DNA of 64,000 nt from Psammoneis japonica (GCA_008632985.1 QPGO01000030.1:557135-621134); one strand, 5' to 3'. Positions 1,357 through 64,000 are shown, counted from the stretch's first letter. The notes: a model not told the origin generated them from the sequence alone. Numbers and translations: made by a program.

Positions 1357-1669
1357 TAACTATCTCAAGAACGCGCTTCTCTCTCTTCTTTGCTTGTCTG
1401 TACGAGAAACGAGAATCGCGATATGACAAAATGACAAACCTTGTTAATCTTGCTGCGATACCTTAGTGGCTCACCTATCCACAATCTCATGTCACAGCGA
1501 ACGAGGCACTAACGACAACTTCCCTCCACCCTAACAAGAAATAACAGCAAGGAGGCGGGATGATCCCTGGACAACACACAACACAACACTCCCCTCCCCC
1601 CAGCTCAGGGATGCTTCTCGCAAAAGCGATCAACGCCTTAAGTGGAGTCTTGAACCACGACTACCCCAG

Positions 1670-1693
1670 AAAATACCAGGTTTACCCCAGAAA
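1670..1693 (+). repeat. Left target-site duplication AAAATACCAGGTTTACCCCAGAAA
   Basis: Identical to 4922-4945; preceded by partial unit TACCCCAG (1662-1669). Confidence 0.9.
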
Positions 1694-4600
1694 GCTGCTC
1701 TTACTCTTTGAAGCTCTCATTCTTGCTCCTGTCCCGCCACGCTCCAAGTTTGGCCCTACCATTGCCTCCCGCTTGTCCCTCTTCCGCCGTGGCTGCATTC
1801 GCCAACTCTACCACGAAGCCTGCTCCCATGCGCCGCGCCTCTCCTCATCTTCCCCCGACTTTTCTGCTTCCGCCTGTTGCTGCTCCGCTCAAGTCTGCGC
1901 CGACGAAGATGACTTTCACTCGGCCTGCTCCAAGCTCACCTCTGCGCTTCCTGTTGCTGCCGTTACTCCTGAGCGCCTTCCTGCCATCCTCAAGCTCTAC
2001 CCTCCTCGCCTGCACCCCTCCGACCCACCTGATCCTCCTTCAACTCGCTCGGCCTCCTCCCTTCACAATGAGCCTGTTGAGCTCTCCTCCGATGCTCTTC
2101 TTTCCGCTCTCTCCAAATGTAAGCCTGGGACTGCTGCCGGTGTCTTTGCTGATTCTACCGACCTTTTCAAGTCCTGCGCCCTCCATTCTGCCAAAACCCC
2201 AACAGGTGTTGCTCAACGCCCCTGCTTGTCATCCTTTCGTGAGCTTGTCCTTCTTCTGCTCCATGGCTCCATTCCTTCCTCAGTCCATTCCTTATTTGCT
2301 TCGAACTACTTTGTCGCTCTGCATAAAGATGCCAGCGACCTCAACAAACTTCGCCCCATTGGCGTCGGCACTGCTCTTCGTCGCATTGCCGGCTCCGTCG
2401 TCATGACTCTCTTTGGTTCTGCATTTGCCGAATGCCTCCTCCCAGATGGCCAATTTGGCATTGGTGTCAAAGGTGGCCTCGATTATCTCATTCACTCTGC
2501 TCTTGCCAACATTGAACGACATCTTTCTTCTGCCGACTCTGCCAAGGCTCTTCTTCTTCTTGACCTCGTCAACATGTTCAACGAAGCATCCCGAGATGCC
2601 TGTCGACACGTTCTCACCTCCACCCCTGCCTTCCATCCTCTGCTTCCTTTTTTTGACCTTCTGTGTCAAAGTTCCAATGCATGTTGGCATCGCCGACCCG
2701 ATTCTTCCTGGGGCTCCTTTCTTCAAGAAGAGGGATTTGCCCAAGGATGCCCTCTCGGCCCTGTCTTCGCCAGCCTGGTCCTCTCTCTGGTTCTTCGTCC
2801 GATTAACCAAGAGCTTCAAGAACGTATCCCTGGCCGTTCCTCTGTCTCAGTTGGCTCCTACATTGACGATGCTCACGCTTTCCTTCCCCATTCTGTGGCT
2901 CCCATGGTTCCTTGAACGCTTCTCCGCCCTCGGTGCCCCCTGCGGAATCTCCCTCAACCTCCGTAAAACCAAGATCCTCACCTCCATTGCTGGTGTTAGC
3001 CCCATCCCTGCTCTTCCCCCTTCCCGCGCCGATTCTCTCCGTGCTGCACTTTCCTTCTTAAACCCCACCAATGACCCCTCTTACAACCCCGAACTCACCT
3101 CTGGTGTTCGCTTCCTTGGACAGCCCCTCGGCTCCCACGACTTCGCCACCTCTTTCCTTTCCGACACTTCCTCCACTCTCTCCGACAAAGTTGACATGCT
3201 TCTCACCCGTCTCCATGACAAACAAACCCAGGCTCAACTCTTCAAGCACTGTTTTGTTCCATCCTCTGCTCACCTCCTTGGAGCTGACTTCCACTGCAAC
3301 TTCGACCCCGACAATCCTCCCGACCCCTTTCTCTGGACCTCTCCGTTTCAAGATTTCCTCCTCACCGTTGCTCACCGCTTTCTACACTACGTCACTTCCT
3401 TCGCCGCTCCTTTTCCCGACCATTCTATTGCCATCGCCTTCCTTCCTGCCTCCTCAGGCGGGTTTGGTCTCCGGGACCCAACAGCTGCCGCCATTCCTTC
3501 CTTCTTGGTGTCGCTTCTCCGCTCGTTCCGCTTTGCTTCGCACGGTGTCAGCCTGCCATCTGGCGCTTCTGTTTCCCTTCCGCGCTGCTTTCGGCTCTCC
3601 CTGTCTTCCTGGTCCAACCCTCGCTCTTCCCTGCGACTCCACACGCTCTTCCACCGTTGTGCTCCCGTTCTGGCTTCCGCCTCTGCCCTTTCCTCTTCTT
3701 CCTTGGCCACCCTGGTTAAATCGGCCACTCTCCCCGGCCTGGCCCGTCGTCTCCACCATGAACATCAGCAACAAGCAGTGACCTCCATCCTTGCTAACTC
3801 ATCTTACGACGTGCAATCTTCACTCCCCTCATTGCTGTCTCCGCTTACAAGCCTCCCTCTTCATTCCTTCTCTCGTCGCTTTCCAAGCTCCCGCCTTTCT
3901 TCGGACGCCTGCGCTGTTGCCGCCCTTCGTAAGCTTCGTCTCCCCATCCTTCCTCCGTCCCTTGTCAACACTCCCTGTCCCTGTGGCCATGCCATTCTGG
4001 ATGCCTGTGGTGATCATGCCTTTTCTTGCCGCCGTGCTCACAAGTCCAAGCTTTCCAATGGTCTCCGTGACGCTGTTTTCATCCTTGCCCAAACTTTGGG
4101 TCCTCTTGCAGAGTTCTGTCGATCCCCCAATGACGTTCATCTTGAACCCACCAACCTGCTCCCCACCCGCCTGCTTCTCCGTCCCGCCAATGTCGGCATT
4201 TCAATCCCCCCTCCCGCCTCCCTTTCTGCTCCCTCCCGCCATCACTGCATTGCAGTGGACGTCACCGTCCCTCAAGCTTCCTCTCGCCCTCCTCCAGGTC
4301 TGCCTGCCCCCTCTTCTCCTGTCTCAACTGAGGCACACCACTCGAGCGCGAGATTGAAGTTTCTTGGCCCCTCCACTTCCTCTGCCGATGGATCCCTTGT
4401 TGTTTCTTCGCTTGACAACAATGGCATCTTCCTGCTCCCCTTCACTGTAGATCACCTTGGTGGTCTCGGCTGCTTTGCCCACCGCTTGCTCTTTGGTTCT
4501 GCATCCCCCTCCGTCTGCTCTCAGCCCAAGCCACCCTGGTCCTCTTCCTCTGACCTTCGTCACTCCGATGCCTCCTGCTCCGCCTTCCTCTGCGCTTTGT

Positions 4601-4921: not shown

Positions 4922-4970
4922 AAAATACCAGGTTTACCCCAGAAAATGCCAGGTTTTACCCCAGAAAATG
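4922..4970 (+). repeat. Right TSD (4922-4945) within a ~21-bp minisatellite AAAATRCCAGGTTT(T)ACCCCAG
   Basis: aaaataccaggtttaccccag-aaaatgccaggttttaccccag-aaaatg. Confidence 0.9.
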
Positions 4971-7058: not shown

Positions 7059-8454
7059 GACCAAAACCCAAAACAAGCTCGAAGAGTTCGGTTCGAGATG
7101 TGCGATGGCTCCAACAATCAACAAATCAAAACAGACGCCAAAAGCCAACAAGAAACCCGGAAAGCTATGACCCTACTTGCCGCCTCCCGCGCGCAGCCCG
7201 CAGCCCGCGCTCTGCCAACACAGAACACCCCCAACACCATGACGACGGTTGTGTGGCAATTCTCAACACCGAGCGAAACGAAGACTTGTTTTGCAACGGA
7301 ACGGGTCTTTACAAATTACCATGGCATTACAAGAATCGGACATCATTTTTAAAGTGAGTGCACTACTCTACTATTGAGAGCATGACTCTTTTGGATGGAA
7401 GCCCCAAGCCCCATATGATTGTTCATCGCGTACTCATTTCTCTCTGTGTTCCTGCGTTCGCACCACATTACTCTCGATAACGCACGTCCCAACCGTTGCG
7501 GTGGTTCGAAACAAGACGGGACAAAAGATGATGGATTTAGGAATGCGTGCGATTGAATGAATTGAAATGGAAAACAATTGGTGGACCAGTGGCGAACAAA
7601 CAAATCGGGCCTGACAATCTACAACGTAGCGGTTGTGTCACTACTTGAATCCAAAACTGCGAAAAAGAAAATGTTCAATCATGCCACTGGAATCACTGCT
7701 TGCCTGCGACTGCGGCTAGTACGATATCGCAGCTACTGTGCAGATAGTGGCTCAAGCAGCTTTGAATCATTTTATACGCTTAAATGAAATGGAGGAATCC
7801 AACTTTTTCTGGCCCAACGACTGGTAAGTGTACGATCGTACCTTGTTGCACAGCCTCAAACCAGGAGAAGGCTTTGGCGTGGCAACGGTTATTCTTCTGG
7901 GCCGCCGTCGCAAGGGCTTTCCGCGTACTGGCGATTCCCACGCGACGCCAAACGGCAGACACGTATCCACCGAACGTGCACGTTTTGAACCTGCATCGAA
8001 TTTTGTACCATCCCAACTGTGACAAAGAAACTGCAGCATTGTACAGTGTAATCAAAGCAGCGAAAGATTTGTGGTTCTAGTTGAACACCGGCAGAAAAAC
8101 TGTTCGAAACGCGTGCCTTATCTCGAAGCATGGACGACATGGCGGGGTCTGATCGTTTCGAGGGACTGGGCCACAGACACGTCTCGGTCGACGCAGCTCT
8201 TTCCCTTTTCCTTGTTGCTCCCACTGCATTGGTCTTGTGATGGGCACATTGCTGGATTGTAGATTTGTGACAAGAATGCCAAGAGAGTACGCTACTACAA
8301 ACAACAACACGGCAAGACCGCATTGGCCGGCTCAAAAAATCCACACCGAACGCTTTGTCCGCTCTTAACCACCGACATTTCTCCGACAGGTCTCATTGCC
8401 CCGCACCAGCATGGGATGACCCAAGACCATCTCCAGTCCTCCAGTATCACCCAC

Positions 8455-8732
8455 CACCTCCACAGGTTGCATCTAAAAGATTACGCTCTGCTCCACAATG
8501 AACCGTAAAGCCAGCTTTTCTTGAAGCACCGTGCGACGGTTTCAAGATTGGAAGCAGCGACATTCAAAGTGCCGGTGGAGTAGCGATTTATCTTGCGTTT
8601 GCTTCATTCTGTGCGCAACTGATTGCAATGGCGTCTGTAGAATGCTTACTTCCACCTATGTTTCTTTCCAGTATCTGAAGACTCGGGTCTCACTCGTCTC
8701 GCTAGAGAGCCATCTCTTGGAACCTGTGCTGA
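8455..8732 (+). repeat. Dispersed repeat copy A (unclassified non-autonomous element)
   Basis: About 280 bp colinear with 12265-12542; both end in TCTCTTGGAACCTGTGCTGA. Confidence 0.85.
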
Positions 8733-9056: not shown

Positions 9057-9176
9057 GCGTTTGGACCATACTATATCGGAAAAATTCTCCGCTACCGGCA
9101 AGAGTGCTTGCGGAAAAAAAGCGTTTGGACCATACTATCGGAAAAATTCTCCGCTACCGGCAAGAGTGCTTGCGGA
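9057..9176 (+). repeat. Direct duplication (58 bp + A6 spacer + 56 bp)
   Basis: gcgtttggaccatacta(ta)tcggaaaaattctccgctaccggcaagagtgcttgcgga occurs twice, separated by aaaaaa. Confidence 0.9.
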
Positions 9177-11557: not shown

Positions 11558-12264
11558 GATGATTGATAGTAGTAAGACGTAAGTCGATGCTTGATCAGTG
11601 GTCAACTTCGGAATTGTGAGAGGTTCAGCGTGATTGCGGTTTCGACGGCTTGCTCGGATGTGATTGCTTCGACATACTAGACTTTACGTAGATTCTACGG
11701 ACGAACGATGTATCGTCAAAGCCATCCCGCCTCCAATCACACGAATCAAAAGCGGGCGGGCAGGTTTTGTACACAAAATATGATAGTAAATTGACCGTAC
11801 CATGTCCTACACTACTTTTTGCGTAAGGCAAAAAAATACTCTTCAAACTTCATAAACACGCATTTTCGTCCATTGCATATTCAACATTGAATAAGAATAT
11901 ATAAAATTGAATAGGGCATGGGAATTGAGCGGAGGAACTTGGAATGTCATGGGAATGAACGACAGCAACAAGAAATGGGCATTTCATTACATAGCAGGCA
12001 TTGTTGCATCAAAATCCTTCCTGTTGACGCATCCCCCCAAACAAAACTCAATGCCGAGCCCGTCCCCAACGTTTCCGATGTCTCGACTGAATCTTCCCCA
12101 TTCACCACCACCACCTCCTTGCACCCAAAGAGACTGCAGTTCATCAAGTTTCCACCTGCTGCCTCGTCCATTGCCATGCTTGGCAATGCTTCCTCCACTT
12201 TATTTTGAGTTTCACATGGACTTGAGCACCCGATCCACACCAGCAGCCGCTCTGATTGAACGTC

Positions 12265-12542
12265 CCACCACCACAGGTGGCTTCTAAAAGATTGTGCTCT
12301 GCTCCACAATGAACCGTAATGCCAGGTTCTTTGAAGCACCGAGTGAATTTTCAAAATTGGAAGTGGCGACATTAAAAGCACCGGAGTGGTGCCTGTTGGT
12401 TTTGCGTTTGCTCTTTGTTCCGTGCGCAACTGATTGCAATGGCGGCTGTAGAATGATTCTCTCCACCCATGTACTCTACCAGCATTTGAAACTAGGGTCC
12501 CATTCCTCTCGCTACAGAGCGATCTCTTGGAACCTGTGCTGA
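12265..12542 (+). repeat. Dispersed repeat copy B (TpA-poor; may extend 5' to ~11920)
   Basis: Homologous to 8455-8732. Confidence 0.85.
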
Positions 12543-22139: not shown

Positions 22140-23020
22140 GAATTCGGCCGAACAGCTCGTGTTTTGCATGATTTTTCCTGAATTTCACCGTGCTTCACCG
22201 TGGTGAAAACAACAAGCCATAAGTCTGTGACGGAGGTGGTCCGTCTGCCAACTCTCATTTATTTTATGTTTGTTGTGTGTCAAAGATTGTGTGTGCATGA
22301 AAAGTTGGCAGACGGCAAACTGCGTTTTTGAGAAACATCGATGATTGTCATCATCGTCGTGCTTCGATCGCGGTGCTGATGGTTCTCGTTTTCATGCATG
22401 ATCGGGTGTGACTGTGAACAATTCTTGCATTCAAAAATAAACACCACAAAAAACCTCATTCAAATGCAACGGCAATTTTGGGACAAACGCGGGGATGACC
22501 CCCCTTGAAGATGTCCAAACCAAAATTCTAAAAACAGAATGAACGAGTTCATTGCTTGCATTGCCGACATGCATCGTTGCACATGTGTTTCAAAGTTGCA
22601 CGCAAGAAGCAAGAAACTGCAGCAGCACAATGATGCATGCCACCGGTGTCCCACTTTATGACGTGATGTCTCAATGATGCTTGCACCGATTTCTCCGTTT
22701 CTTTTTTCGATGTTGGGAGCAATTGCACAATGCACCCTGCTGGGTTGGTCTCGTTGTGTGTTGTCGAGAATTGTGGATTTCTGTTTTGTCCAAAAATCAC
22801 TCTCAGAACTGGCAAGTTAGACAGGTGCATTGACAACAGAATGAACGATCAAAGCATTTTTGACAACACTGAACACTTTTGACCAAACTGGCACAATGTG
22901 GCACCTTCAGTTGGGAGGTCAGTGGTTCAGCGGCGCCAACACATGACACATCATCTTCACCGAGATGATTGGGCGTGGGCAAATGCGTCTCAATCGTGTC
23001 TTCTCAGTCGGGCTCGCGAC
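22140..23020. repeat. TpA-depleted degenerate repeat/TE relic
   Basis: Only ~7 TpA seen, all in TAA/TTA; rich in TG/CA; no intact ORF. Confidence 0.55.
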
Positions 23021-23914: not shown

Positions 23915-24695
23915 ATGAGGATTGCTTTTTCCTTTCTTACTTTTATGATTGATGCTGCTACAGGTGTGGGAGTTAGTGCATGTGATCCCAACCCATGCAT
24001 GAACGGAGGGACGTGCTCGGATACACTTGGCGGGTTTTCTTGCGTTTGCTCCGAAGGGTTCACAGGCAGGAGATGCGGAGCATTGATGCCAGGCATGCGC
24101 AGCCTCCTACTAGATACGTGCGAACCAAACCCATGCCACAACGAAGGGACATGCGAGCACACCCTTGGCGGATATCACTGCCATTGTGCCGAGGTGAGTG
24201 ACACAGTTGCGGGTCGTACATGACAGGGACAATTCTTTTTCTAATTGCTGTTTTCTTTCTTTTTAGGGATGGGAGGGGACGAATTGTACGGACGAGTCAA
24301 CCCAATTCCCTTACGACACGTGCGAACCCAATCCATGCCACAACGAAGGGAACTGCTCGCACACCCTCGGTGGCTACCGTTGCTCTTGTGCAGAGGGATG
24401 GGAGGGGACGAATTGCACGGACGAGTCAACCCAACTCCCTCATGACACGTGTAGACCCAATCCATGCCACAACGAAGGGAACTGCTCGCACACTCTCGGT
24501 GGCTATCGTTGCGCTTGCGCAGAGGGATGGGAGGGGACGAATTGCACGGACGAGTCAACCCAACTCCCTTATGACACGTGCAGACCCAATCCATGCCACA
24601 ACGAAGGGAACTGCTCGCACACCCTCGGTGGACATCATTGCTCTTGTGCAGATGGATGGGAAGGAATAAATTGTACGGAGAACAGGAGCAACTAA
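23915..24695 (+). CDS. Small secreted protein of five tandem EGF-like domains; exons 23915-24193, 24267-24695
   Basis: Signal-like N-terminus; CDPNPCMNGGTC..FSCVCSEGFTGRRC. After the GT-AG intron the frame reads (GWEGTNCTDESTQxPYDTCxPNPCHNEGNCSHTLGGYRCSCAE)x3 and ends at TAA 24693. Exon 2 is absent from the ORF track. Confidence 0.88.
24267..24680 (+). repeat. 129-bp coding tandem repeat, about 3.2 units
   Basis: Units start at 24267, 24396, 24525, 24654 and are near-identical. Confidence 0.92.
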
Positions 24696-54314: not shown

Positions 54315-55182
54315 ATTGAGAGTTGTAAGCAACCAACACGTGCCTACAGAACTATTCTTTTAAGGTTTTTCTAAAACTGCTCGATTTCATCCGAGCAAGG
54401 AGTTGCTCGTGAGCATTGAGTGTTGCTTCTTAGACCTAGGAGAGAAATGTTACTGCTTGACGTTTCTCAAGGCACGCTTTGAAGACCTGATGATTCATAC
54501 CTCCCTTCTCTATAGATCCCCAAAAGAGTTCGAAAACAATCTTTGCAAAGCCTTCGTGGTCGCGGTTTACTCGAGACTTGCAGGACAGGACTGAACCAAG
54601 CTGGTCGGCCGGTACCTACTCTCGGCTTCCGTCACCAAGACAATACTGTGTGTACCGGCAGCCAGCTCCTGATGCCAATGCCCCCAGGCATATCCGGAAA
54701 CTAAAACGTGATGATGCGTAGTACCAAATTCAAGATGGCAAAACTCCCAACGACTAGCTCTATTAGAGGTGGGGTTGTATTCTAGCTACTAGAGAGAGCA
54801 ACTGCCGCGCTCCTTGTCCTGATTTCGTTTTTTTTCTTTTTTGTTTCGTTCAAACTTCCCGGCAAAAACTCGAAAATGTGCAGAAATGGGCTATTATAGA
54901 AATTTCCGCTTGCGCACGGCACAGATTTTTTTTCAATTTTGGATAGAGACCATGATCGCGGGGACGTTGCAGACAGATCCTCGTTCGGGTGGTATCAAGA
55001 GGAATAGCGATGTAAATGTCCTCCCAATCGTATCAGAAAGTGAGTTTAGCTCATGACTTTCGGTAGCTTTCCATGGCATCCTGGGAGATTTCCAGCCAGG
55101 TTCAATGTGCAGATGTGCAGGCGTGGCGGCGTGACTAAGCCTATTATCACGAGCACTGAAACGAAGTGATTTTGCACTTGAT

Positions 55183-56101
55183 ATGGTTGATCGATCGAAG
55201 GTGTTTGTTCTTTTGCGGTATCTGGCGAGCTTCTCCTTACTTACGTTATCTTTTCCATTCCATCTAAAACTCGGTAGCATGGTCACAGGTGAGGGATGAC
55301 ACTGATCCGTCGATAGACTGGTTAATTGCTGGATATGAGGGAAATAGCAAAACCGACATTACAGTATTGGGTCGAGGAGTCGGCGGAATTGATTCTTGTT
55401 CGCGATCGCTTCCAGATCGTGTCGCCGTCTTTGGTGGATGCAGGCTCCAACAAAATGGGAGATTTGTTAGCTTTTTTTATGTGGATGATGGAACTCCAGT
55501 TATGCAACGTGGACGAGCGTCAATGCATAAGAATGGTGAGTGTCGGTTGATTTTGAGTTCACCTCCGCGAGTATGAGGGACTGATGGTTGAGCTACAACA
55601 TTGCGCATGTCCGTAGGAGTTTTGAACGTTCTAGAAGGATGCGACGGAGAGATAGAAATGAAACGTGGTCTCTTGGAAAAAGAAACTGTTCTGCCTGTTT
55701 CAGGTGGTGGTAATGTCAATACGAGTAAGCAAATGCAGTCAACACCAAAACCGGCGTCCGTACCTTCAATATCAAACAAGCCGGCATCAACTGTGGCGCC
55801 GCCCACGAGTAAGAAGGAGATTGGTGCGCCACCAGCGGTAGTTGATGATGCACCATCTCCAAATGACACAAGAGGAGCCAGGTCGTTGAATGCCAGTGTC
55901 GGCACAACAGCGGTGCCTTATTCTCAGCTGAAAGACGTGAATGACCCTGCACTCCTTCCGGCAGGTGTAGACCCACTGAATCGAGAACAGTCACTATCTG
56001 ACACAGAGTTCCTCGTTGTTTTTGGAATGGATAGAAATACTTTCAAGCAGCAGCCAGCCTGGAAACGCACCAACCTGAAAAAGAGTAAAGGGTTATTCTG
56101 A
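55183..56101 (+). CDS. Actin-binding protein: ADF-H/coactosin-like domain + villin headpiece (5' end uncertain)
   Basis: [34 protein letters not shown]; intron ~55537-55616; headpiece [29 protein letters not shown]. Confidence 0.85.
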
Positions 56102-56187
56102 TGCTGCATGGACAGGCAAGCCCAGAAAGTTGCAAAAAATTGATAGAAGTACTATGACAGTTAAAACAATAGCATTCGCATCTTGTA

Positions 56188-57618
56188 TCACTCTATATCC
56201 ATGGGTTCGTCAGCATGACGGAACCACGGGTGGTTGGCAACCTCATCTAGCGAAAGTCGCAATCTGGGGTCAACTTGGAGCATACCCTGCAACAAGTCTA
56301 AAGCTTCGTCCGATAGCGTCACGCCCCAATCGTCAAGCAGCATTGTGAGTCCTTTTGTCATCCAATAGAACTGCGGGTCTGACTCGTGTGGTCGTTCATA
56401 GGATCGATTTCCACTGAGCATACAAAAGAAAATCGTTCCAATTGTCCAAATGTCCACTGCCTCAGCATCAAAGCTGTCCCTGTTTACGTAAATCTCTGGC
56501 GACATGTACGGCAATTTCCCGCAAGCACCCTGTGGCTTGAGCAGCCGGCGTGCGGTTCCTTTCGATATGTCAGTCACCGCGTTTGCCGGGCCATCCTTTC
56601 TAGAGTATGGTATTCGCAAACACATTCCCATGTCAATAATGAGACATTTCTTCTGTTTGTCAATCATGATGTTCTCCGGAGACAAGTCACGATGGCAAAT
56701 ACCAACACCGCGTTGTAGATGGCATAATCCAGCAACCATTTGCCGAAACCAATAGCGTGCCTTTGGTTCTGGCAGCTTTGGCGTTCTTTGCAAAAAGGCA
56801 AACAAGTCACCCGATCCACAGTAAGGCATAACAACATTGAGCTGGTTATTCTTGCCATCGAAAAGTACTTCCAAGCATCCCAACACATTTGGGTGATCGT
56901 TACCAATGAGTTGCATTGCAGCTATTTCTTTCAGGGGGTCCTCGGCGTGCCTGTTCTTCATTCGTTTCATTCTATCGCCATAATTGACTTTTACTGCAAC
57001 ATACTCTGTTGTTAGCTGGAAAACAATGTCTTCTTCTTCGTCGTCTTCATCTTCGCTGTCGGTGCTGTCATTATCGTCATTCTCGGCATCCGATTCGTTG
57101 TCCTTCACGCAGCGCTTCAGTACGTGGCATATTTCAACATGCCCCATGATTGTCTTCATGGTTGCGTGCTGAGGTATGGGAAAGTAAGCCCGCTCAACTC
57201 TATTCAGTCCGCCTTCCTCGCTTCCGTATTCGCGTGAAAAGTCGTGAAACAACACCCGCTCAGCTTGGTAAACTCGTTGGGTGAGATCGTTGCAATAGCA
57301 TACAGTAGCTCGCTGCCCTCTTTGAAACACCGGAGAAGGAAAAGCAATGGGATCTGCGGGTCTCCCAGCCTCACATACATCATCCCAAGGACGACGATCT
57401 GCCCGTGCTGTAGCAGACGGTTCCGCGGCATTTGCAGCCTCCTCTTTGCCGCGACTGCTGTCTAACGATGTGCTGGAGAGGGTCAGTGTTTCGAGCTGCA
57501 TGTTCATGTCACCGTTGCTGCTGCCGTATCTTTCTTCAGATTCAAAACGCATCATGTGAGGGACCCCACCCTGTCCATCCGATGACTCTTCCCGGGCATA
57601 ACCGTCGTCGCGAGCCAT
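56188..57618 (-). CDS. Ser/Thr protein kinase (CAMK-like group)
   Basis: VAVK, EDPLKEIAAM, HRDLSPEN, IIDMGM, GKLPYMSPE, DIWTIG, DPRLR. Confidence 0.93.
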   Translation of the reverse strand: MARDDGYAREESSDGQGGVPHMMRFESEERYGSSNGDMNMQLETLTLSSTSLDSSRGKEEAANAAEPSATARADRRPWDDVCEAGRPADPIAFPSPVFQRGQRATVCYCNDLTQRVYQAERVLFHDFSREYGSEEGGLNRVERAYFPIPQHATMKTIMGHVEICHVLKRCVKDNESDAENDDNDSTDSEDEDDEEEDIVFQLTTEYVAVKVNYGDRMKRMKNRHAEDPLKEIAAMQLIGNDHPNVLGCLEVLFDGKNNQLNVVMPYCGSGDLFAFLQRTPKLPEPKARYWFRQMVAGLCHLQRGVGICHRDLSPENIMIDKQKKCLIIDMGMCLRIPYSRKDGPANAVTDISKGTARRLLKPQGACGKLPYMSPEIYVNRDSFDAEAVDIWTIGTIFFCMLSGNRSYERPHESDPQFYWMTKGLTMLLDDWGVTLSDEALDLLQGMLQVDPRLRLSLDEVANHPWFRHADEPMDIE

Positions 57619-57734
57619 GTTCAGTGAAAGTGCCTTTTTGTGTCCGTCTCACACCGACCGTATCTCTCTGCTCTCAACGCGTTTGCTGATCGGACGGGTC
57701 TAACGTATGATATCACGTATTCTCAAAGCATAAA

Positions 57735-60700
57735 CGAAAACAGAGGCGTCTTGCGGCCACCCTCTCGGTGAATCCAATGTCTTTGTTTGAATGCTGCCCA
57801 AGCTTCGTGGTTGCGCAGTGTTCTGATCTTGCGGTCTTGCGGCGCGGGTTGCAATGCGCAATGCGATGAACCGTGCATGTGCCTCCGAGGCATTTTGTTG
57901 CCGTTTGCCACGGAGGCAGGCAGACTAACTGTGGGTAAACAAACTCAACGCGGCAACGCTGGCGGAGCGAGAACCAATGTCCCTAAAACAGACAAAAGCA
58001 CAATCCCACATTTTCGCATCGCACTTCAAAGCCGCGAAACCTCAACACTCCCCAGCTCCAACACACGACAACAAGAAACCAGAAGCAGGGAGTTAGAAAT
58101 TGGACTCTGTTGTTGTCTCAGGAGCTCAGCTTTTGGCAGTGAAAAATGTGGTGTGAAAAAAGAGCCATGATCAGTCCACAAAAAGACCACTGGCGGGGCA
58201 CTCTTGCACAAGGAGCTCCTCACAAGCTGACAGAAAGCAAGACAAACGACCAGAACGGAAAGGCACCATGCAAGAAATCAACATTGCCACAAACACTGTT
58301 GCAAGTGCATCAACTTGCCTGTCAGAAAAGTGGGTGCTCCTCACTTGCAATGAAAGCACCGCGGACCAAGCTGCTGCTCTGTGGAGCTTTTGTGCTCTCT
58401 CTGCTGACATGAATGCTTTTTTTAACAGAGTCATTTGTGGCAAATGGAAACATGGGCAAAGGCCTCGAAAATGCAGGTTTTGCATTGAGTGTGGATGATC
58501 CACACATTGTGGCTCCACAAGAAGATGTGGTGAGATGGGAAGACGGAGAAGGAGCAGCGCCGCTCTCACTTCTTTGTTGAGTGCTGCTGGCAATGGTCAA
58601 GAGCATGGCTTGGGGCTCTGTGCATTTGCCTGCACCATCACAAGCACAACACTCTCCCCTTTTTCCTTTGCTGCCTGGAGGCATTTTCAGTTTGCTGTGA
58701 CATGTGGCCAATTTGTGCCAACAGCACAGGGCGTGTGCAGAGGGGAAAGCACCCTCCCTGAGGGGGCACCGCTCTGGCACTGCAATGTGGTCTTTTGCAA
58801 ATGCACTTCTGCAATGAATTGAGTGACCCCCAGCAACAAAACCACCACAACTCCACACAACCCATTTGATGAGCACCATCTGAGCTGCTGGCTGCTGCTG
58901 TTCTTCCAGAAGAGGTCAAGGGGACATCAAGACAGGTGAGGGGGTGGCTGCTGCAGAGGAGCCATGAGAGATGGAGCAACTCATTGTTGAGATGCACCTG
59001 CTGGCAAAAGTTTGTTGGGAAGCCCCAGGTGCAAAGCTGGACATGCAATGCCTCAAACTTTCTGGGCAGGGCTGCCAGCACACCTGCTTGTGTGGCATTC
59101 TTCAAACATCCCGGGACCACCAGCTAACCTGTTGCTGCTCTGATGGAGCATCACATTTGTGGTGACAGACCAAGAGTTGAGCAGGGTTCTTGGTCAGAGA
59201 AACTTTGCTCCAGCCCAGCACCAAATGTGCAAAGATTGGTTTGGAGCCTTGGCCATGCAGACACCAGGGGGGCACCCACCTTCAGGAAGCTTTGGCAACT
59301 CAACAGGTGGATCATTCAGCCCTGAAAGTTGTGCAGGAAAATTGTTCAGGCCAGCTGCAAAGCCATTGATCACCAATCTGTTTGTCCATCTGTGCTTGAA
59401 TTTCAACTTCTTGGGAAACCAGTTGAAATGACATCTGAACAAAAATGTTGTTCTTTGCCGTGCAAAGTGAAATGCATTTGATCAGGCCACATTTCAACTG
59501 ATGCCTTCCTGCAAAGTCACTTGGCTCCTGTCACCCTCTTGCATGGCATTGTGCACATTTCTGCACAATTGTGTTTTTTTTCACACAACAAAACAGCCAT
59601 GGCTGTTGAGATGTTTTGGAACGACTCCCATTGAAATGGTCAGCAGGTTTGTTCTGACAAGCAGGAACCTCTGAAACTGGAAAATCCTGAACATGCCAGC
59701 AGCATGGTGCCCCCCACGACAATGTGGAAAACCTGACAACACAGCACAGGCCATGCACTCAGAGATGTCTGCCACAAAAAGCCACGAGAGGTGTGTGGGA
59801 AAAGATGCCAGAATCACTGGTGATGTGGTTGGGGGAGAAGAGCAAGTCTCCACACAACTGGAGAGCTGCATTGTGGCATTGTGAGAGCCATCTCAAAAGT
59901 TGGCACCAACAAGATGAGGGTTGTTGCCTGTCCTCCTCAGACAACTCACAAGCACAAAAAGTTTTTGATTTGCAAGAAACTCTGGGTGGAAATGCACTGG
60001 CTTGAAAATTCTTCACATTGAGCTGGAAGGAAGTGCAGCAGGAGCAGCAATGTTGCTGGCACCTGGAGAGAGAGGGAGTGCAGGACTTGGGTGGCTCTCC
60101 AGCCCAGCTCAGCAACTGTGGTCTGGGAAATGGTGCACGAGAAGCATCGCGCTTTTGGGGGCATCAAATGTTGGTCACTGACTTGCCATCTTCAGAGCGA
60201 ACACTTAAAAAGCAAGAGCTCTTGCACGTTGTCATCCAGGTGGCCAAGTTGAAGGGACGCATCCACATGCCCATCAACACAACCACTCAACCCCTCATTT
60301 TCCCTGCCTTGCAAGCAAGGTGGTCGACACAAAATCTTGAGTCAGCCCAAGAGAACAAGACACATGACAGGCTTCAAGAGGCAGCAGCTCGGCCAGAGCA
60401 GCTTCAGCCTTCAGCGGTGAAAACAGCATGATGGGAAAGAGGGCAGGTTGATTCAAAGGACAACTGTCACCACATTGAAGCTGTCCCACACAGCTTCTTG
60501 TGCCACGTGCTGTGTTGTGAGAGATTGTGGCGGTGGTGTGCCATGGTGGCGGCGCTCTTTGACGATGCTCCATGCACCCCCACCCACCAGCAGGGTTGTG
60601 GATTCCTGGGACAAGCAGGCATGGCTGAGCTTAGAACACGAATTGATTTGGTTGCTTGCTTCTTGCTTGGGTGATTCCAGATGTTTTGTTTTTGATTTTT

Positions 60701-60760
60701 GGATCGGCAAGCTTTGCCAGTTAGCACAGCCATCAGTTGTGTGTAAGCAGGGAAGTCGGT
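57735..60760. repeat. Hypermutated (TpA- and CpG-depleted) tract containing gene-derived fragments
   Basis: About 3 TpA in 58100-60620 by manual count; contains an inverted copy of 62703-62906. Confidence 0.8.
58083..58307 (+). pseudogene. Inverted, mutated partial copy of the 5' end of the 62075-62869 methyltransferase gene
   Basis: Aligns to the reverse complement of 62703-62906 (LEIGLCCCLRSSAFGSEKCG vs LEIGLYYCLMSSAFGSEVCG). Confidence 0.85.
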
Positions 60761-61076
60761 TTGACCATCCGCCCGCCCAAGCGAAATAAACATCAATGCA
60801 GTTGAACATCGTTGATCTCTACATACGTCTGCGTGCACGTAAAATTCAGTAATGGGGGATTCCATTTGTAGCGCACGGTACATTTTCTACGCTTGCCAGG
60901 TGAAATTCTGAAGAATGTGAGAAAGCATGCTGAACTCGTGTGAAGGCACGACGCAACATCAAAAGATCAGTGCAAGATCTCATCGTTCCCGGTAATGTTC
61001 AGTGTGGAACACATTAAATCACAATTCTCGTTGCTATCTTTGGCTTCAATCTCAGGAGAAGGATTTGAGTGACAGC

Positions 61077-61952
61077 ATGCGTGCTGAGGTTTTTTCTTTT
61101 GCATTTCTGGTCCTTGTTTCTTCAAGGTGCGACGCTTTTGTTTCCCCCGCGATGACACGATGCTCTCGTGTCAAGGAGTCGTCTTATTTATTTGGAATGA
61201 AGAAAGATGATAGCGAAGGCCAATTTGATCTCGAGGCAGCTCGTCGACGCTTGGAGGCCATGATGGGAGGAGATGAGACATCGAGCGGTCAGGCAGTTCA
61301 GGAGCGTACAAAATCTCATGCTGTTCAGAGCAAACAGACAGCGCCCCCTCCGTTGACGGCGATTGCGCGAGAACGGCGACTTGCAGAAATGCAGCTACTA
61401 TCACAGCTTAATGATAGTGACGATAGCCTTTCTGATCTATGGTCGCTTTGGTTTGGCGAGCGCGGTGCTGAGGCAGCGGTCGAGTTGATGCGTTGCGAAG
61501 AACTCGCTGCAGAGGGTCCGCGCGGATACGACGAAGTAGAAGACCGTTTGAGAAAGCTCATCAACGAACATGGTGTGCACTGGGCCGAACCCGTAAATCG
61601 ACTTGCCACTCTCTTGTACCTACAGGGACGTCTAGAGGAAAGCAAGGCTCTTTGCAAAACTGTCCTGGATGTCAAACCGTGGCACTTTGGAGCGCTATCA
61701 GGAATTGTCCTGGTCTGTGCCGCAATGGGTGACGCCGCTGCTGCTCGACAATGGGCTGCCCGTAGACTTCCTCCTATTCAACCCGCCGGAAACAATCGCA
61801 GACGAAAGGATTGGGTTCAGCACTCACTGGAGGAAGCTCGTGAGTCGCTTGCCGAAGCAGAAGAGCAGTTGCGGGAAGACTTTGGAGCACCTGACGTGTT
61901 GCCGTCATCAAAAGACACTTCCGACGAAAAAGACGAGGATTCATGGCAGTGA
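61077..61952 (+). CDS. Plastid-targeted TPR-containing protein
   Basis: Signal peptide + CDA|FVSP; WAEPVNRLATLLYLQG..VKPWHFGALSG TPR motif. Confidence 0.85.
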   Translation: MRAEVFSFAFLVLVSSRCDAFVSPAMTRCSRVKESSYLFGMKKDDSEGQFDLEAARRRLEAMMGGDETSSGQAVQERTKSHAVQSKQTAPPPLTAIARERRLAEMQLLSQLNDSDDSLSDLWSLWFGERGAEAAVELMRCEELAAEGPRGYDEVEDRLRKLINEHGVHWAEPVNRLATLLYLQGRLEESKALCKTVLDVKPWHFGALSGIVLVCAAMGDAAAARQWAARRLPPIQPAGNNRRRKDWVQHSLEEARESLAEAEEQLREDFGAPDVLPSSKDTSDEKDEDSWQ

Positions 61953-62074
61953 CAGTGGGCCGGAATCTGGTCAGTAGATCCCGATCACTATGTTGGGCCT
62001 CCCCGTACTGGGTTCTATATGCCTAAAAAGCCAACAGTCCTCTGCAGTCTTTTGTTAATATTGTTAAAATTTCG

Positions 62075-62869
62075 TCAAGATATATCTGAATGCGTGTTCA
62101 GCCAAATAGCAGTATTTCGTCCTTCAAATGGCAAAGTCTCGACAACGATTCGGCTATTCTTCTTGGCTAGATATTGGCAGAATTGTTCGTGCGTTCTCAC
62201 CGGTACTAGTTTCCCATTTTGTTCGATTCGTCGTTGAGAAAACAAATTTGGAAACACGCAACAGGGGACCACCACAAAAGGTTTATCGTGCTTCAGGGCC
62301 GCGTCGACGATGGCTTCAGTAGCCCCATCAGCATGCATTCCAACCAGCAGCGAGGCGTCTTGTATCGCTTGCTTCAGTTCAACAGAATTCTCTACCGTGT
62401 GTTCATCAAAGGTCATAACGAGTTGACGAAATCGTTCATTCACCACCTCTTGACAAAAATCGGAATTGTTGCGAGTCTGTCGTTCGAATCGATCTTGCCA
62501 CTTATTTGGGAGTTTGGGCAAGACGAGAGTTTCAAAACAGCGCGCAACATCTGCTTCTCGTGGGTCCACCATGACGACACTTAGACGATGGCACAAGGAC
62601 AATCGTGCCGCGAGCTCCCCCTTGCCACCCGCCACATCTAAAACATGCTTCGGAACAGTGCCGCTCTTGACCTCTGTCAAGTGAGGAAACGTCCTCAACA
62701 ACCACTTGCAAAAGTGTTTGTGGCGATGTTGATTTCTCGCACCGTGCCTTTTCCGTTCCGGTCGTTTGTTCTGCTTTCTATCGGTTCGTGAGCCCTCTGA
62801 AGGAGAAGCCGTATCCTTGATCTTTGGTTCTTTTGCGCCACATACTTCACTGCCAAAAGCTGAACTCAT
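62075..62869 (-). CDS. SAM-dependent methyltransferase-like protein
   Basis: VLDVAGGKGELA, VMVDPR, LVGMHADGATEAIVD, FVVVPCCVFP, LPFEGRN. Confidence 0.85.
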   Translation of the reverse strand: MSSAFGSEVCGAKEPKIKDTASPSEGSRTDRKQNKRPERKRHGARNQHRHKHFCKWLLRTFPHLTEVKSGTVPKHVLDVAGGKGELAARLSLCHRLSVVMVDPREADVARCFETLVLPKLPNKWQDRFERQTRNNSDFCQEVVNERFRQLVMTFDEHTVENSVELKQAIQDASLLVGMHADGATEAIVDAALKHDKPFVVVPCCVFPNLFSQRRIEQNGKLVPVRTHEQFCQYLAKKNSRIVVETLPFEGRNTAIWLNTHSDIS

Positions 62870-63059
62870 GAGACAATAGTAGAGTCCTATTTCCAACTCC
62901 CTGCTTGGCTACTTGACGTCCGGTGGTCGGTGGATGTTATTCTACCTTGGCATTCCGCACTCCAAAACCCCAAATTGCGGTACAATTCTACGTGTCTCTA
63001 GTAATGGACGACGGCAAGACGCAATTTCAAAGAGGAGCTAGCTGCCTGAAGGTGTACAA

Positions 63060-64000
63060 GGAGAAGACTGATGAAACAGATGATGACCATTGGACTGCTC
63101 TTGAAGGAGTGGACGAGTGTGACACCACGCTTGCATTGAAAAAGCAGGAAGAAGCTGGAGAGGAGCGCGATCCAAGCAGCCTTGAAGAACACATGGGCGG
63201 ACTGGCTCGGAAAGAAGACAATGCAGGGGGGTTGCGATGAGGGTTTGGGAATGGTGGCGTGTTCACCATGAGATGCATTTGTCCATGTCTGAAGCTGCAC
63301 ATCCAGCTGGTGGTCCTCGTGCAACTTTCCAGTGCTTCAGTCAAGCAAGTGAGTTTTTTCTAAGCTCAACAAGCACGTTGTTGAGACAGCCCAGTGCAAC
63401 ACGTTGCACGATGCCACTTTGTTGTGCATCATCTTTTTTCTCATTTGCACAAGGGATGTGATGTCAATCAAGACCATTGGCGGTGCTGCAAGAGAAGCCC
63501 AGAGTCAAGAGAGCTCTTTCTCAGCTCGAGTGGGCTCGCACGATGCAATTTTGTTGTGTTGTTTTTTCTCATTGGCAGAAGGGGCATGATGCAGTGGCAA
63601 CACACAGTGCAGCAGCAATGTGATTGACATGGTGCAGCAGCAATGTGATGTGCCGGCAATGCAATGCAGCAAAATGCAATCAGGAAACAATGAACGGTGT
63701 CATTGCTGTGCCACTGGTGATGAAGCACCACTGCACCAAACCTGGCACTGCACCACGTGCACTCTACGCAGTGCGCACTCTGCGCAATGCATTGCCCACT
63801 CAGCTCACAGAAATTCCTGTTTTGCACACTGCGCAATGAGCCTGTGCCTGTGTGCACCACATGTGCAGCATGTGCCATTTGTGCAATGGTGTGGCGATGC
63901 AAAAAAATGTTCATTGCACGTGGGTTGTTTGAAGCTTCACTGGACGGCTGTGTCTCTTTGTCTGTGTGACCATGGAGAGAGCAGTGATGAGGTGTTTGGA
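63060..64000. repeat. Second hypermutated TpA-depleted tract (runs off the window end)
   Basis: 2 TpA seen in ~940 bp (63361, 63765); TG/CA-rich; internal ~55-bp degenerate direct repeat 63405-63463 / 63538-63591. Confidence 0.75.

What the first reader, a model, noticed from the sequence alone, without database searches (positions are those of the whole stretch)
57735..60760. Repeat-targeted hypermutation that erases TpA (TA->TG/CA), opposite in direction to fungal RIP
Seen: between 58100 and 60620 I count only 3 TpA (58423, 59125, 60206); on the order of 150 would be expected at ~50% GC. CpG is also scarce and TG/CA is abundant. Neighbouring genes and intergenic DNA use TpA normally. The same signature occurs at 22140-23020, ~11920-12450 and 63060-64000, and more weakly in the retrotransposon, so it tracks repeated or mobile DNA. 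Established: 5mC deamination explains CG->TG/CA but not TA loss, and fungal RIP (CpA->TpA) creates TpA. Inference: a genome-defence or heterochromatin-linked A:T->G:C mutator acts at TpA. Candidates are DNA adenine deamination or polymerase-eta-type error-prone repair (WA->WG, as in somatic hypermutation). I do not know a characterised system of this kind in diatoms, but I cannot check the literature.
Basis: partly seen in the sequence, partly recalled or inferred. Interest (0 to 1): 0.92.

Follow-up and report, generated by a model that had tools for sequence, protein, structure and literature searches.

The report
TpA-erasing hypermutation island in a diatom
A 2.5-kb stretch of non-coding diatom DNA has had almost every TA and most CG dinucleotides turned into TG or CA, the footprint of a targeted mutation process that has so far been measured in only one other, unrelated alga.

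Summary
Between 58095 and 60632 there are 3 TpA where about 94 to 152 are expected, and 30 CpG where about 152 to 162 are expected. TG and CA are 1.8-fold enriched. The excess TG/CA almost equals the missing TA plus CG.

The island is non-coding, not tandem and mostly single-copy. It lies between two gene starts at a rearrangement breakpoint in a raphid pennate diatom.

- Two paralogue pairs show TA/CG in one copy and TG/CA in the depleted copy.
- Repeat copies elsewhere in the genome differ by adjacent CA<->TG double changes.
- A reverse-transcriptase ORF has Cys or His at 5 of 9 conserved Tyr columns.
- Of 4 differences between the assembly and read contigs in 8 kb of unique DNA, 3 are TpA->TpG/CpA, in or beside the island.

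The signature (A:T->G:C at TpA only, on both strands, in local clusters) was measured de novo in Bigelowiella natans in a 2026 preprint, so the kind is known. It is unreported in diatoms in the library searched. CpG loss is a separable second process, probably 5mC deamination.

"Repeat-targeted" is not supported for the main island. A silent domain bounded by promoters fits better. Polymerase eta is disfavoured. Verdict: new member of a known kind.

The parts
58095..60632 (.). TpA/CpG-erased island. Non-coding, mostly single-copy DNA between the 5' ends of two divergent genes.
   Evidence: 3 TpA and 30 CpG in 2537 bp, with TG/CA 1.8-fold enriched. No Pfam hit in 6 read-through frames at E<=1. 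No Rfam hit. No tandem array. Period-3 signal 0.2-2.8, against 3-10 in most tiles of coding sequence. Covered by single contigs at depth 62-65.
58050..58307 (+). Mutated leftover copy of the 5' region of the methyltransferase gene. It sits in the ancestral position and orientation next to the kinase gene start.
   Evidence: 73.6% identical to 62906-62703(-), rising to 85.4% in a purine/pyrimidine alphabet. Alignments. Synteny in L002 and L003.
62703..62906 (-). Unmutated partner copy, forming the 5' UTR and N-terminal extension of the Methyltransf_32 gene (ORF 62075-62908).
   Evidence: Keeps 6 TpA and 10 CpG in 204 bp. Covered by contig 60972-62923 of X2, a run that behaves like RNA. Pfam PF13679 hit.
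59214..59815 (.). Short multi-copy segment inside the island.
   Evidence: X1 summed depth of 199-565 against about 62 in neighbouring bins. Loose ends at 59377-59580.
57936..57936 (.). TpA that reads CpA in the X1 contig.
   Evidence: T>C, in context GGTAA.
59126..59126 (.). Residual island TpA that reads TpG in the X1 contig.
   Evidence: A>G, in context CTAAC.
60207..60207 (.). Residual island TpA that reads TpG in the X1 contig.
   Evidence: A>G, in context TTAAA.
63056..64000 (.). Multi-copy TpA/CpG-depleted repeat that runs off the window end.
   Evidence: TA o/e 0.03, CG 0.44, TG/CA 1.9-2.0. X1 depth 234-669 from many contigs at 80-95% likeness. Differences between copies in X1 are 130 transitions and 42 transversions.
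22140..23020 (.). Non-coding region that has lost TpA but not CpG.
   Evidence: TA o/e 0.11, CG 0.89, CA 1.67, TG 1.62. No long ORF. Copy number not tested.
11920..12450 (.). Weaker TpA-depleted region with a paralogue at 8454-8689.
   Evidence: TA o/e 0.21. The pair is 79% identical. Of 10 TpA in the 8-kb copy, 4 read TG/CA in the 12-kb copy. In the reverse direction it is 0 of 8.
1545..2915 (+). Reverse-transcriptase ORF carrying the same signature at protein level.
   Evidence: RVT_1 hit at E 7.6e-8. At 9 Tyr-majority columns the window has Y3, C3, H2, R1. C or H was gained at only 4 of 218 other columns, P = 3e-6.
56188..57648 (-). Left flanking gene, a protein kinase, with ordinary dinucleotide use.
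   Evidence: Pkinase hit at E 4e-39. X2 contig covers 55616-57813.
61077..61952 (+). Right flanking gene, a conserved diatom TPR-like protein, with ordinary dinucleotide use.
   Evidence: 307 homologues at E<=1e-5, the best 57% identical. X2 contig starts at 60972.

Best explanation
The island is ordinary non-coding DNA that has been driven to saturation by two dinucleotide-specific transition processes. They act in a transcriptionally inactive interval that stops about 280 to 340 bp short of the starts of the two neighbouring transcripts.

**Process 1.** This one defines the island. It is an A:T->G:C transition confined to 5'-TpA-3', hitting both strands equally (TpA->TpG or CpA). It is the same signature that was measured de novo in integrated viral DNA of Bigelowiella natans. 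I infer that it is enzymatic: deamination of adenine to hypoxanthine in DNA by an ADAT2/TadA-like or other nucleic-acid deaminase recruited to silenced chromatin, with the lesion fixed as G at replication.

**Process 2.** C->T at CpG, most simply deamination of 5-methylcytosine in methylated silent DNA. It is slower and graded, strongest in the island core.

**What is shown.** The composition, the mass balance, the direction in paralogue pairs, independence from CpG loss, action on a retroelement and a multi-copy repeat, and 3 TpA-specific differences between assembly and reads.

**What is inferred.** The enzyme, the chromatin targeting, the methylation, and homology of the mechanism with that of B. 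natans.
For: 1. **Size of the effect.** 3 TpA against 94 to 152 expected, P about 1e-36, with sharp edges at 58094 and 60632.
2. **Mass balance.** TG+CA is 222 per 1000 trinucleotide positions in the island, against 139 in background. Converting all TA and CG predicts 237. RMSE over 8 trinucleotide classes is 5.9 for the conversion model and 11.5 for no conversion. GC content is almost unchanged (0.507 against 0.494).
3. **Paralogue pair 58083-58307 vs 62906-62703.**
   - 202 aligned bases: 166 identical, 24 transitions, 12 transversions.
   - Of 6 TpA in the normal copy, 3 read TG/CA. Of 10 CpG, 6 read TG/CA.
   - By contrast 8 of 10 TG and 16 of 17 CA are kept.
   - Identity rises from 73.6% to 85.4% when transitions are ignored.
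4. **Second pair.** 4 of 10 TpA become TG/CA in the depleted copy, against 0 of 8 in the reverse direction.
5. **Multi-copy repeat at 63056-64000.** X1 copies differ from the window by 130 transitions and 42 transversions. Among the 36 rows shown for that region there are 4 adjacent CA->TG double changes (63219/20, 63475/6, 63662/3, 63737/8). This is expected if an ancestral TA or CG was resolved independently in each copy.
6. **RT ORF.** 5 of 9 conserved Tyr (TAY) columns read Cys (TGY) or His (CAY), against 4 of 218 other columns (P = 3e-6). A control helicase keeps 5 of 5 Tyr.
7. **Assembly versus reads.**
   - All 4 differences between the assembly and the X1 contigs over 55000-63075 are A>G or T>C.
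   - 3 of the 4 are at TpA, and all 4 lie within 57936-60207.
   - 2 of the island's 3 residual TpA read TpG.
8. **Separability.** 22140-23020 has TpA o/e 0.11 with CpG 0.89. L017 1251-2500 shows the converse. CpG per 250 bp is 0 to 3 in the core and 6 to 7 near the edges, while TpA is 0 to 1 throughout.
9. **Control DNA.** In 281,818 bp of related diatom-like contigs, 1 of 1047 500-bp windows passes rho TpA <= 0.2 and rho CA+TG >= 1.5, against 15 of 255 in this window. The longest TA-free run there is 285 bp, against 1081 bp here.
10. **Precedent.** In B. natans, 230 of 231 mutations in two hypermutable regions were A>G or T>C, and the text states that all of them fall on TpA. The large region is single-copy and transcriptionally silent. 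There are 124 TpA-poor, CpA+TpG-rich clusters genome-wide. An ADAT2-like candidate is proposed.
11. **Methylation in diatoms.** Diatom DNA is methylated, and loss of DNMT5a de-represses young transposable elements in Phaeodactylum (abstract).
Against: - For about 90% of the island there is no ancestral or sister sequence. There the direction rests on mass balance alone.
- The paralogue counts are small. Half of the 6 TpA in the first pair changed in other ways, and there are 12 transversions, so ordinary divergence is mixed in.
- X1 may be the sample the assembly came from, and only contigs were available, not reads. The 4 differences could therefore be alleles, culture drift or consensus errors, and their direction is not polarised.
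- Nothing shows that the island is foreign, mobile, methylated or silent.
- No comparable island appeared in 282 kb of other diatom-like contigs. Generality within diatoms is therefore unshown. Those contigs are mostly genic.
- CpG loss was not part of the B. natans signature (0 occurrences of 'CpG' in that text).
- No deaminase gene lies in this window, and the genome could not be searched.
Confidence: 0.68

Rival explanations
1. Homology-dependent, RIP-like targeting. Duplicated DNA is recognised as such and mutated at TpA. The island is, or was, a member of a repeat family.
For: - The 63056-64000 region is multi-copy and depleted.
- 59214-59815 inside the island is multi-copy.
- The left edge of the depletion (58095) lies within about 45 bp of the start of the duplicated segment (58050-58083).
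- A retroelement shows the signature.
- Heavily mutated copies could have drifted below the 80% likeness used.
Against: - Most of the island is covered by single contigs at unit depth.
- It has no second copy in the window, even in a transition-blind search.
- Only one of the two 225-bp copies is mutated. RIP, as I recall it, mutates both.
- In B. natans the main target is single-copy.
Confidence: 0.12
2. One enzyme or pathway removes both TpA and CpG. An example would be a dual A/C DNA deaminase of the ADAT2 type acting at both self-complementary pyrimidine-purine steps.
For: - The two largest islands have lost both dinucleotides.
- The B. natans preprint states that amphioxus ADAT2 edits both A and C in DNA, and that trypanosome ADAT2 deaminates C in DNA (the paper's own citations, not checked by me).
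Against: - 22140-23020 and the retroelement region have lost TpA with CpG near normal (o/e 0.89, and rho 0.72-0.91).
- L017 shows CpG loss without TpA loss.
- CpG loss is graded while TpA loss is flat.
- 210 of 211 mutations in the B. natans NCLDV region were A>G or T>C.
Confidence: 0.08
3. The primary lesion is on thymine, not adenine. For example, thymine in TpA is oxidised to 5-hydroxymethyluracil by a TET/JBP-type dioxygenase and then mispairs or is misrepaired to C. Because TpA is its own complement, the outcome is identical.
For: Sequence cannot tell A>G on one strand from T>C on the other: TG 275 and CA 285, with no strand-coordinated runs (z = -1.8, within the range of controls). From recall, not from any call: in dinoflagellates 5-hydroxymethyluracil replaces thymine preferentially in TpA and TpC.
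Against: - There is no evidence for such a base in diatoms in anything I read.
- TpC is not enriched for change, but neither is it interpretable: TC is 0.67 times background and its complement GA 0.90.
- The preprint's authors favour adenine deamination.
Confidence: 0.07
4. The composition was there before or is selected. The island could be an insertion from a source that already avoided UpA and CpG, as many RNA and small DNA viruses do, or it could be kept TA/CG-free for a structural reason.
For: - The origin of 58307-60632 is unknown.
- Joint CpG and UpA suppression with UpG/CpA excess is described for viruses and cytoplasmic RNA (search listing of PMC3829696; abstract start only).
Against: - An o/e of 0.02 is far beyond such suppression.
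- The host-derived 225-bp fragment inside the island is depleted, while its partner is not.
- The residual TpA are still changing.
- Independent CA/TG resolution is seen among repeat copies.
- There is no coding periodicity.
Confidence: 0.04
5. Sequencing, base-calling or polishing artefact in the assembly.
For: The window differs from read contigs at 4 A/G or T/C sites.
Against: Contigs built from accurate reads (longest 315 kb, depth about 63) reproduce the island base for base apart from those 4 sites, and they make it even poorer in TpA. The caveat is that X1 may not be an independent sample.
Confidence: 0.01

Closest known systems
TpA-specific hypermutation of integrated viral DNA in Bigelowiella natans (Mettrop et al., bioRxiv 10.64898/2026.01.13.699255, 2026). 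I read the abstract, the Results, the Discussion and a term search.
   Same: - A:T->G:C transitions at TpA only, giving TpG and CpA on the two strands.
- Local clusters poor in TpA and rich in CpA+TpG.
- The main target is single-copy.
- Reverse transcriptase is among the affected sequences.
- Excess A/T->G/C differences between two samplings of the same organism.
   Different: - A different supergroup branch: a stramenopile diatom, not a rhizarian.
- Here the erasure is saturated (TpA frequency 0.12% in the island, against 3.3% in their NCLDV region).
- The islands are 0.5 to 2.5 kb of non-coding DNA with no recognisable viral gene.
- CpG is co-depleted in some islands.
- No de novo rate is measured here.
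[quoted passage not shown] Features recalled; also summarised.
   Same: Dinucleotide-specific transitions that degrade non-genic or mobile DNA in situ and leave a skewed TpA/CpA ratio.
   Different: - Opposite direction: RIP makes TpA from CpA, whereas here TpA is destroyed and CpA/TpG made.
- RIP needs duplicated sequence and hits both copies. Here the main island is single-copy and only one of two copies is hit.
CpG decay by deamination of 5-methylcytosine in methylated DNA. General knowledge. Diatom DNA methylation, its loss in a DNMT5a knock-out and the overexpression of young TEs are from PMC9998398 (abstract and passages).
   Same: CpG->TpG/CpA with matching TG/CA excess. The loss is graded and incomplete (30 CpG remain).
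   Different: It cannot explain the loss of TpA, which is the stronger and sharper effect and occurs without CpG loss at 22140-23020.
ADAR hyper-editing of double-stranded RNA (recalled; discussed).
   Same: A->G with a preference for U/T 5' of the edited A, acting on both strands of a duplex.
   Different: ADAR acts on RNA and, as I recall, is confined to animals. It would reach DNA only through reverse transcription. Here the target is single-copy non-coding DNA that still appears to be changing in place.
Polymerase-eta WA->WG mutagenesis in somatic hypermutation
   Same: A->G at A preceded by T.
   Different: The WA motif includes AA, which is not depleted here (1.10 times background). The polymerase-eta pattern is strand-biased, as I recall, whereas this signature is symmetric (TG 275, CA 285).

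Membership tests
B. natans-type TpA hypermutation | Substitutions are almost only A>G and T>C. | tested here: inconclusive
   All 4 assembly-versus-read differences in unique DNA are A>G or T>C. In the older paralogue pairs transitions dominate (24:12 and 28:22), but C>T/G>A changes and transversions are also present.
B. natans-type TpA hypermutation | Mutations fall on TpA and yield TpG or CpA. | tested here: met
   - 3 of the 4 differences are at TpA.
- Of 16 TpA in the two normal copies, 7 read TG/CA in the depleted copies. In the reverse direction it is 1 of 9.
- Tyr->Cys/His at 5 of 9 columns.
B. natans-type TpA hypermutation | [quoted passage not shown] | tested here: met
   Windows 58001, 59001 and 60001 all pass: rho TpA 0.03, 0.02, 0.21 and rho CpA+TpG 1.74, 1.83, 1.59.
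B. natans-type TpA hypermutation | The target is foreign (viral or transposon) DNA. | tested here: inconclusive
   An RT ORF and a multi-copy repeat carry the signature. The main island has no Pfam hit, no coding periodicity and no known origin, and part of it is host-derived.
B. natans-type TpA hypermutation | A de novo rate about 1000-fold above background in mutation-accumulation lines. | not testable with these tools
   The only hint is 4 differences in 2.3 kb (57936-60207), against 0 in the other roughly 5.8 kb of unique DNA laid.
B. natans-type TpA hypermutation | Caused by an ADAT2-like DNA adenine deaminase. This is a hypothesis even in the source paper. | not testable with these tools
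   No genome is held for this window. No deaminase domain was found among the 19 large ORFs scanned.
Fungal RIP | C->T at CpA, creating TpA and depleting CpA/TpG. | tested here: not met
   TpA o/e 0.02, CpA 1.75, TpG 1.82.
Fungal RIP | Acts on both copies of a duplicated sequence. | tested here: not met
   Only the island copy of the 225-bp duplicate is depleted. The island is mostly single-copy.
5mC-driven CpG decay | CpG deficit with matching TpG/CpA excess. | tested here: met
   CpG o/e 0.18. 6 of 10 CpG in the normal copy read TG/CA in the island copy.
5mC-driven CpG decay | The region is cytosine-methylated. | not testable with these tools
   No methylation data are available. Diatom DNA methylation, and TE de-repression when it is lost, are taken from PMC9998398.
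Polymerase-eta WA->WG | Both TA and AA are targets. | tested here: not met
   AA is 85.1 per 1000 in the island against 77.4 in background.

The most novel reading that the evidence does not exclude
Diatoms carry an active, chromatin-targeted enzyme that deaminates adenine in double-stranded genomic DNA at TpA. It is homologous to whatever drives TpA hypermutation in the rhizarian Bigelowiella natans. If so, the pathway is an ancient genome defence shared at least by Stramenopila and Rhizaria. It works beside CpG methylation to erase both self-complementary pyrimidine-purine steps from silenced DNA. It would also be a natural A:T->G:C DNA editor.
Probability: 0.3. Interest if true: 0.85.

Novelty: new member of a known kind. 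Interest (0 to 1): 0.64.

Why it matters
TpA-specific hypermutation of genomic DNA has, in the library I searched, been described once, in a 2026 preprint on a chlorarachniophyte. Its enzyme, its targeting rule and its taxonomic range are all unknown.

A saturated footprint in a pennate diatom, possibly still active, would have three consequences.
- **Range.** The process is not a peculiarity of one lineage.
- **Candidate genes.** Only genes shared by diatoms and chlorarachniophytes remain candidates.
- **Tractability.** The question moves into a group that includes genetically tractable species.

This locus also adds three points:
- The process can run to completion.
- It is separable from CpG decay.
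- It stops short of the neighbouring gene starts rather than following sequence homology.

No natural enzyme that deaminates adenine in DNA was known when adenine base editors were evolved in the laboratory (recalled). Finding one would therefore have practical value.

Tried and rejected
- **Whole genome.** Not held.
- **Tandem repeats.** No array in the island.
- **Rfam.** 0 matches in 57000-64000 at E<=0.1.
- **Pfam.** On six read-through frames of 57735-60763: 0 families at E<=1. A first try failed because stops remained.
- **Is the island a dead inverted copy of the methyltransferase and TPR genes?**
  - tblastn finds only the first 70 residues of the methyltransferase ORF.
  - A profile of the TPR protein scores E = 1.2.
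  - Rejected beyond 58307.
- **Purine/pyrimidine-alphabet BLAST of the window against itself.** Only the known 225-bp pair stands out. The E-values are miscalibrated and everything else is noise.
- **LTR-like direct repeat at the island's right end (60403-60469 vs 58125-58192).** Score 55, against 58 for a chance hit elsewhere. Not above noise.
- **Homology between the island and the 62950-64000 repeat.** Scores 30.5-41, within the null range whose maximum is 48.
- **Strand-coordinated TG versus CA patches.** z = -1.8 for the island, while control genes range from -3.1 to +2.5. Uninformative.
- **GC-biased gene conversion.** GC is 0.507 against 0.494 in the flanks, and AA/TT are not depleted. 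Rejected.
- **Polymerase eta.** Rejected.
- **Expression.**
  - No RNA holder was listed.
  - X2 behaves like RNA (GT..AG skips). Its contigs do not cover 58010-60718 except for scraps with loose ends.
  - This is not evidence of silence.
- **Literature.** Searches for a diatom report found none. They cover only the held library.
Full report
**Observation**

A dinucleotide profile of the window shows one outstanding anomaly.
- In 58100-60620 (2521 bp, 51% G+C) TpA occurs 3 times (o/e 0.02) and CpG 30 times (o/e 0.18).
- CpA and TpG are 1.75-fold and 1.82-fold over expectation.
The bounding TpA are at 58094 and 60632.
- Using the window's own background rates, 94 TpA and 152 CpG would be expected in 2537 bp. 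The Poisson probabilities of the observed counts are about 1e-36 and 1e-33.
- The four longest TA-free runs involving this island are 1081, 702, 426 and 329 bp. The mean TpA spacing in the window is 30 bp.
- The flanks are ordinary, with 4 to 7 TpA and 10 to 22 CpG per 250 bp.

- 63060-64000 is as extreme for TpA (o/e 0.03), with CpG at 0.44.
- 22140-23020 has TpA 0.11 but normal CpG (0.89).
- 11920-12450 and the retroelement region are weaker (0.21).

**What the island is**

- It is not a tandem array.
- It has no Rfam match.
- It has no Pfam match in any of six frames read through stops.
- Its three-base periodicity is no higher than in other non-coding parts of the window: 0.2-2.8, against 3-10 in most tiles of coding sequence.

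The window is gene-dense eukaryotic DNA. A DDX52/ROK1 helicase encoded in it has its best named relatives in raphid pennate diatoms: Cylindrotheca 65%, then Nitzschia, Amphora, Seminavis and Fistulifera.

The island lies between a protein-kinase gene (56188-57648, minus strand) and a conserved diatom TPR-like gene (61077-61952, plus strand). A Methyltransf_32 gene follows at 62075-62908 on the minus strand.

Contigs of run X2 show GT..AG skips and so behave like RNA. They end at 57813 and begin at 60972. The depletion therefore stops about 280 and 340 bp short of the two transcribed blocks.

**A rearrangement breakpoint**

The only sequence in the window related to the island is 62906-62703 on the minus strand. 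It matches 58083-58307 at 73.6% identity.

In two related metagenome contigs (L002, L003) the gene order is TPR(+), methyltransferase(-), kinase(+). There the methyltransferase and kinase starts face each other a few hundred bases apart.

In the window the TPR-methyltransferase block is inverted relative to the kinase. The island's left end is thus a leftover copy of the methyltransferase 5' region, in the ancestral place and orientation.

The remaining 2.3 kb is not a decayed copy of either gene. It is not related to the repeat at 62950-64000. Its origin is unknown.

**Direction of change**

Four lines of evidence agree.

1. **Mass balance.** TG+CA make up 222 per 1000 positions in the island, against 139 in background. 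Converting every background TA and CG to TG or CA predicts 237. That model fits the eight trinucleotide classes twice as well as no conversion (RMSE 5.9 against 11.5). G+C content barely moves.

2. **Paralogue pairs.**
   - In the 225-bp pair the differences are 24 transitions and 12 transversions.
   - Identity rises to 85.4% when transitions are ignored.
   - Of the normal copy's 6 TpA, 3 read TG/CA in the island. Of its 10 CpG, 6 do.
   - By contrast 8 of 10 TG and 16 of 17 CA are unchanged.
   - A second pair (12265-12499 and 8454-8689) shows 4 of 10 TpA going to TG/CA in the depleted copy and 0 of 8 the other way.

3. **The multi-copy repeat.**
   - The 63056-64000 region is multi-copy in the genome, with summed contig depth of 234-669 against about 62.
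   - The copies differ from the window by 130 transitions and 42 transversions.
   - I saw 40 of the 172 difference rows. Of the 36 rows in this region, four adjacent pairs are CA->TG double changes.
   - Such doublets are what independent resolution of an ancestral TA or CG in different copies would leave.

4. **The reverse-transcriptase ORF at 1545-2915.**
   - I aligned it with its six database relatives.
   - At the nine columns where most relatives have Tyr (codon TAY), the window has Tyr 3, Cys (TGY) 3, His (CAY) 2 and Arg 1.
   - Cys or His was gained at only 4 of 218 other columns (P = 3e-6).
   - The helicase control keeps 5 of 5 Tyr.

**Possibly still active**

Two long X1 contigs at unit depth cover 55000-63075. 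They differ from the window at four bases only: 57936 T>C, 59116 A>G, 59126 A>G and 60207 A>G.
- Three of the four are TpA->CpA or TpG.
- Two of them remove two of the island's three remaining TpA.
- All four lie within 57936-60207. The roughly 5.8 kb of flanking unique DNA has none.

X1 may come from the sample that was assembled, and I had contigs, not reads. I cannot say whether these differences are alleles, culture drift or consensus errors. Their type and place are what an ongoing TpA process predicts.

**Two processes, not one**

- TpA loss occurs without CpG loss at 22140-23020 and in the retroelement region.
- CpG loss occurs without TpA loss in another diatom-like contig, L017 1251-2500.
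- Within the island TpA is flat at 0 to 1 per 250 bp up to sharp edges. CpG is graded, 0 to 3 in the core and 6 to 7 near the edges.
- CpG decay by deamination of 5-methylcytosine is the ordinary explanation for the second process.

**Targeting**

It does not fit the main island, for three reasons.
- The island is single-copy at 80% likeness, except for about 59214-59815.
- It has no partner in the window, even in a transition-blind search.
- Of the one clear duplicate, only the copy inside the island is mutated.

A domain model fits the anatomy better: silent chromatin, bounded by the two neighbouring gene starts, is exposed to the mutator. Nothing here shows silence, methylation or chromatin state directly.

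**Controls**

In 281,818 bp of related diatom-like contigs fetched through the TPR protein, 1 of 1047 500-bp windows reaches rho TpA <= 0.2 with rho CA+TG >= 1.5. In this window 15 of 255 do. The longest TA-free run in those contigs is 285 bp.

The signature is therefore not a general property of diatom DNA. Equally, I have not shown it in a second diatom. Those contigs are mostly genic.

**Comparison with what is known**

A full-text search for "TpA depletion" with "transposable elements" returned a 2026 preprint on Bigelowiella natans. I read its abstract, Results and Discussion.

What it reports:
- In mutation-accumulation lines, 231 of 302 nuclear point mutations fell in two integrated viral regions.
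- 230 of those 231 were A>G or T>C, and the text states that all of them fall on TpA.
- The rate was about 6e-7 per site per generation, and the mutations appeared in only some lines.
- The large target is single-copy and transcriptionally silent.
- The genome holds 124 clusters of TpA-poor, CpA+TpG-rich windows.
- Reverse transcriptase and DDE domains are enriched among TpA-poor coding sequences.
- The authors propose an ADAT2-like DNA adenine deaminase.
- The text does not mention diatoms, stramenopiles or CpG.

By that paper's own cluster criterion, 58001-61000 qualifies. This window is not B. natans, for three reasons:
- Its proteins are diatom proteins.
- Its overall TpA frequency is 3.4%, against the 6.0% reported for B. 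natans.
- It has long uninterrupted ORFs.

Further searches found no report in diatoms, within the held library only.

Other comparisons:
- Fungal RIP is the mirror image and fails two defining tests.
- Polymerase eta fails because AA is not depleted.
- ADAR is an RNA enzyme of animals (recalled).

**Verdict**

Its mutational reading is well supported. The kind of process is now known from one other lineage. I file it as a new member of a known kind.

What is new here:
- The lineage.
- Saturation of the signature.
- Separation from CpG decay.
- Edges that stop short of the neighbouring gene starts.
- A hint of current activity.

The enzyme remains unknown in both organisms.

Noticed in passing
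window 56188-62908; L002 8369-12123; L003 6045-9792: Relatives have the order TPR(+), methyltransferase(-), kinase(+), with the last two as a close divergent pair. In the window the TPR-methyltransferase block is inverted relative to the kinase. A 225-bp piece of the methyltransferase 5' region is left at the old junction.
   Followed up: partly
window 2001-4923: The plus strand is 69% pyrimidine (C 969, T 750, G 430, A 351 in 2001-4500). The 838-aa ORF at 2407-4923 has no Pfam hit. It may be open only because stop codons need purines. A 41-bp direct repeat at 1654-1693 and 4927-4967 brackets the element.
   Followed up: no
window 24265-24679: A 129-bp unit repeated 3.2 times at 91% identity. 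It encodes Cys-rich modules that look EGF-like to me; no domain search was run on them.
   Followed up: no
L017 1251-2500 and 9251-10000: A diatom-like contig from a microbial-mat metagenome. One stretch has CpG rho 0.32-0.59 with normal TpA. Another is mildly TpA-poor (rho 0.15, with CA+TG 1.57). This was the only window of 1047 to pass the cut-off.
   Followed up: partly
window 58423, 59125, 60206; 58094, 60632: All three residual island TpA are in TAA. Both bounding TpA sit in the hexamer TTAGAA. The numbers are too small to call this a context preference or a target-site duplication.
   Followed up: no
window 55039-55278 and 55534-55616: X2 contigs skip these stretches, with GT..AG ends. 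They are two introns of a gene left of the kinase, and they show that X2 is probably RNA-derived although it is labelled 'DNA?'.
   Followed up: no
window 61077-61949 (alignment A3): The single Tyr-majority column of the TPR-like protein next to the island reads His in the window. This is one column only, so no weight can be put on it.
   Followed up: no
whole window: TpA o/e is 0.52 across the whole window, genes included. This is at the low end of the 0.44-0.92 range seen in 57 related contigs. A weak genome-wide action of the same process is possible but untested.
   Followed up: no
window 9057-9176: A 62-bp unit repeated 1.9 times at 96% identity in intergenic DNA.
   Followed up: no
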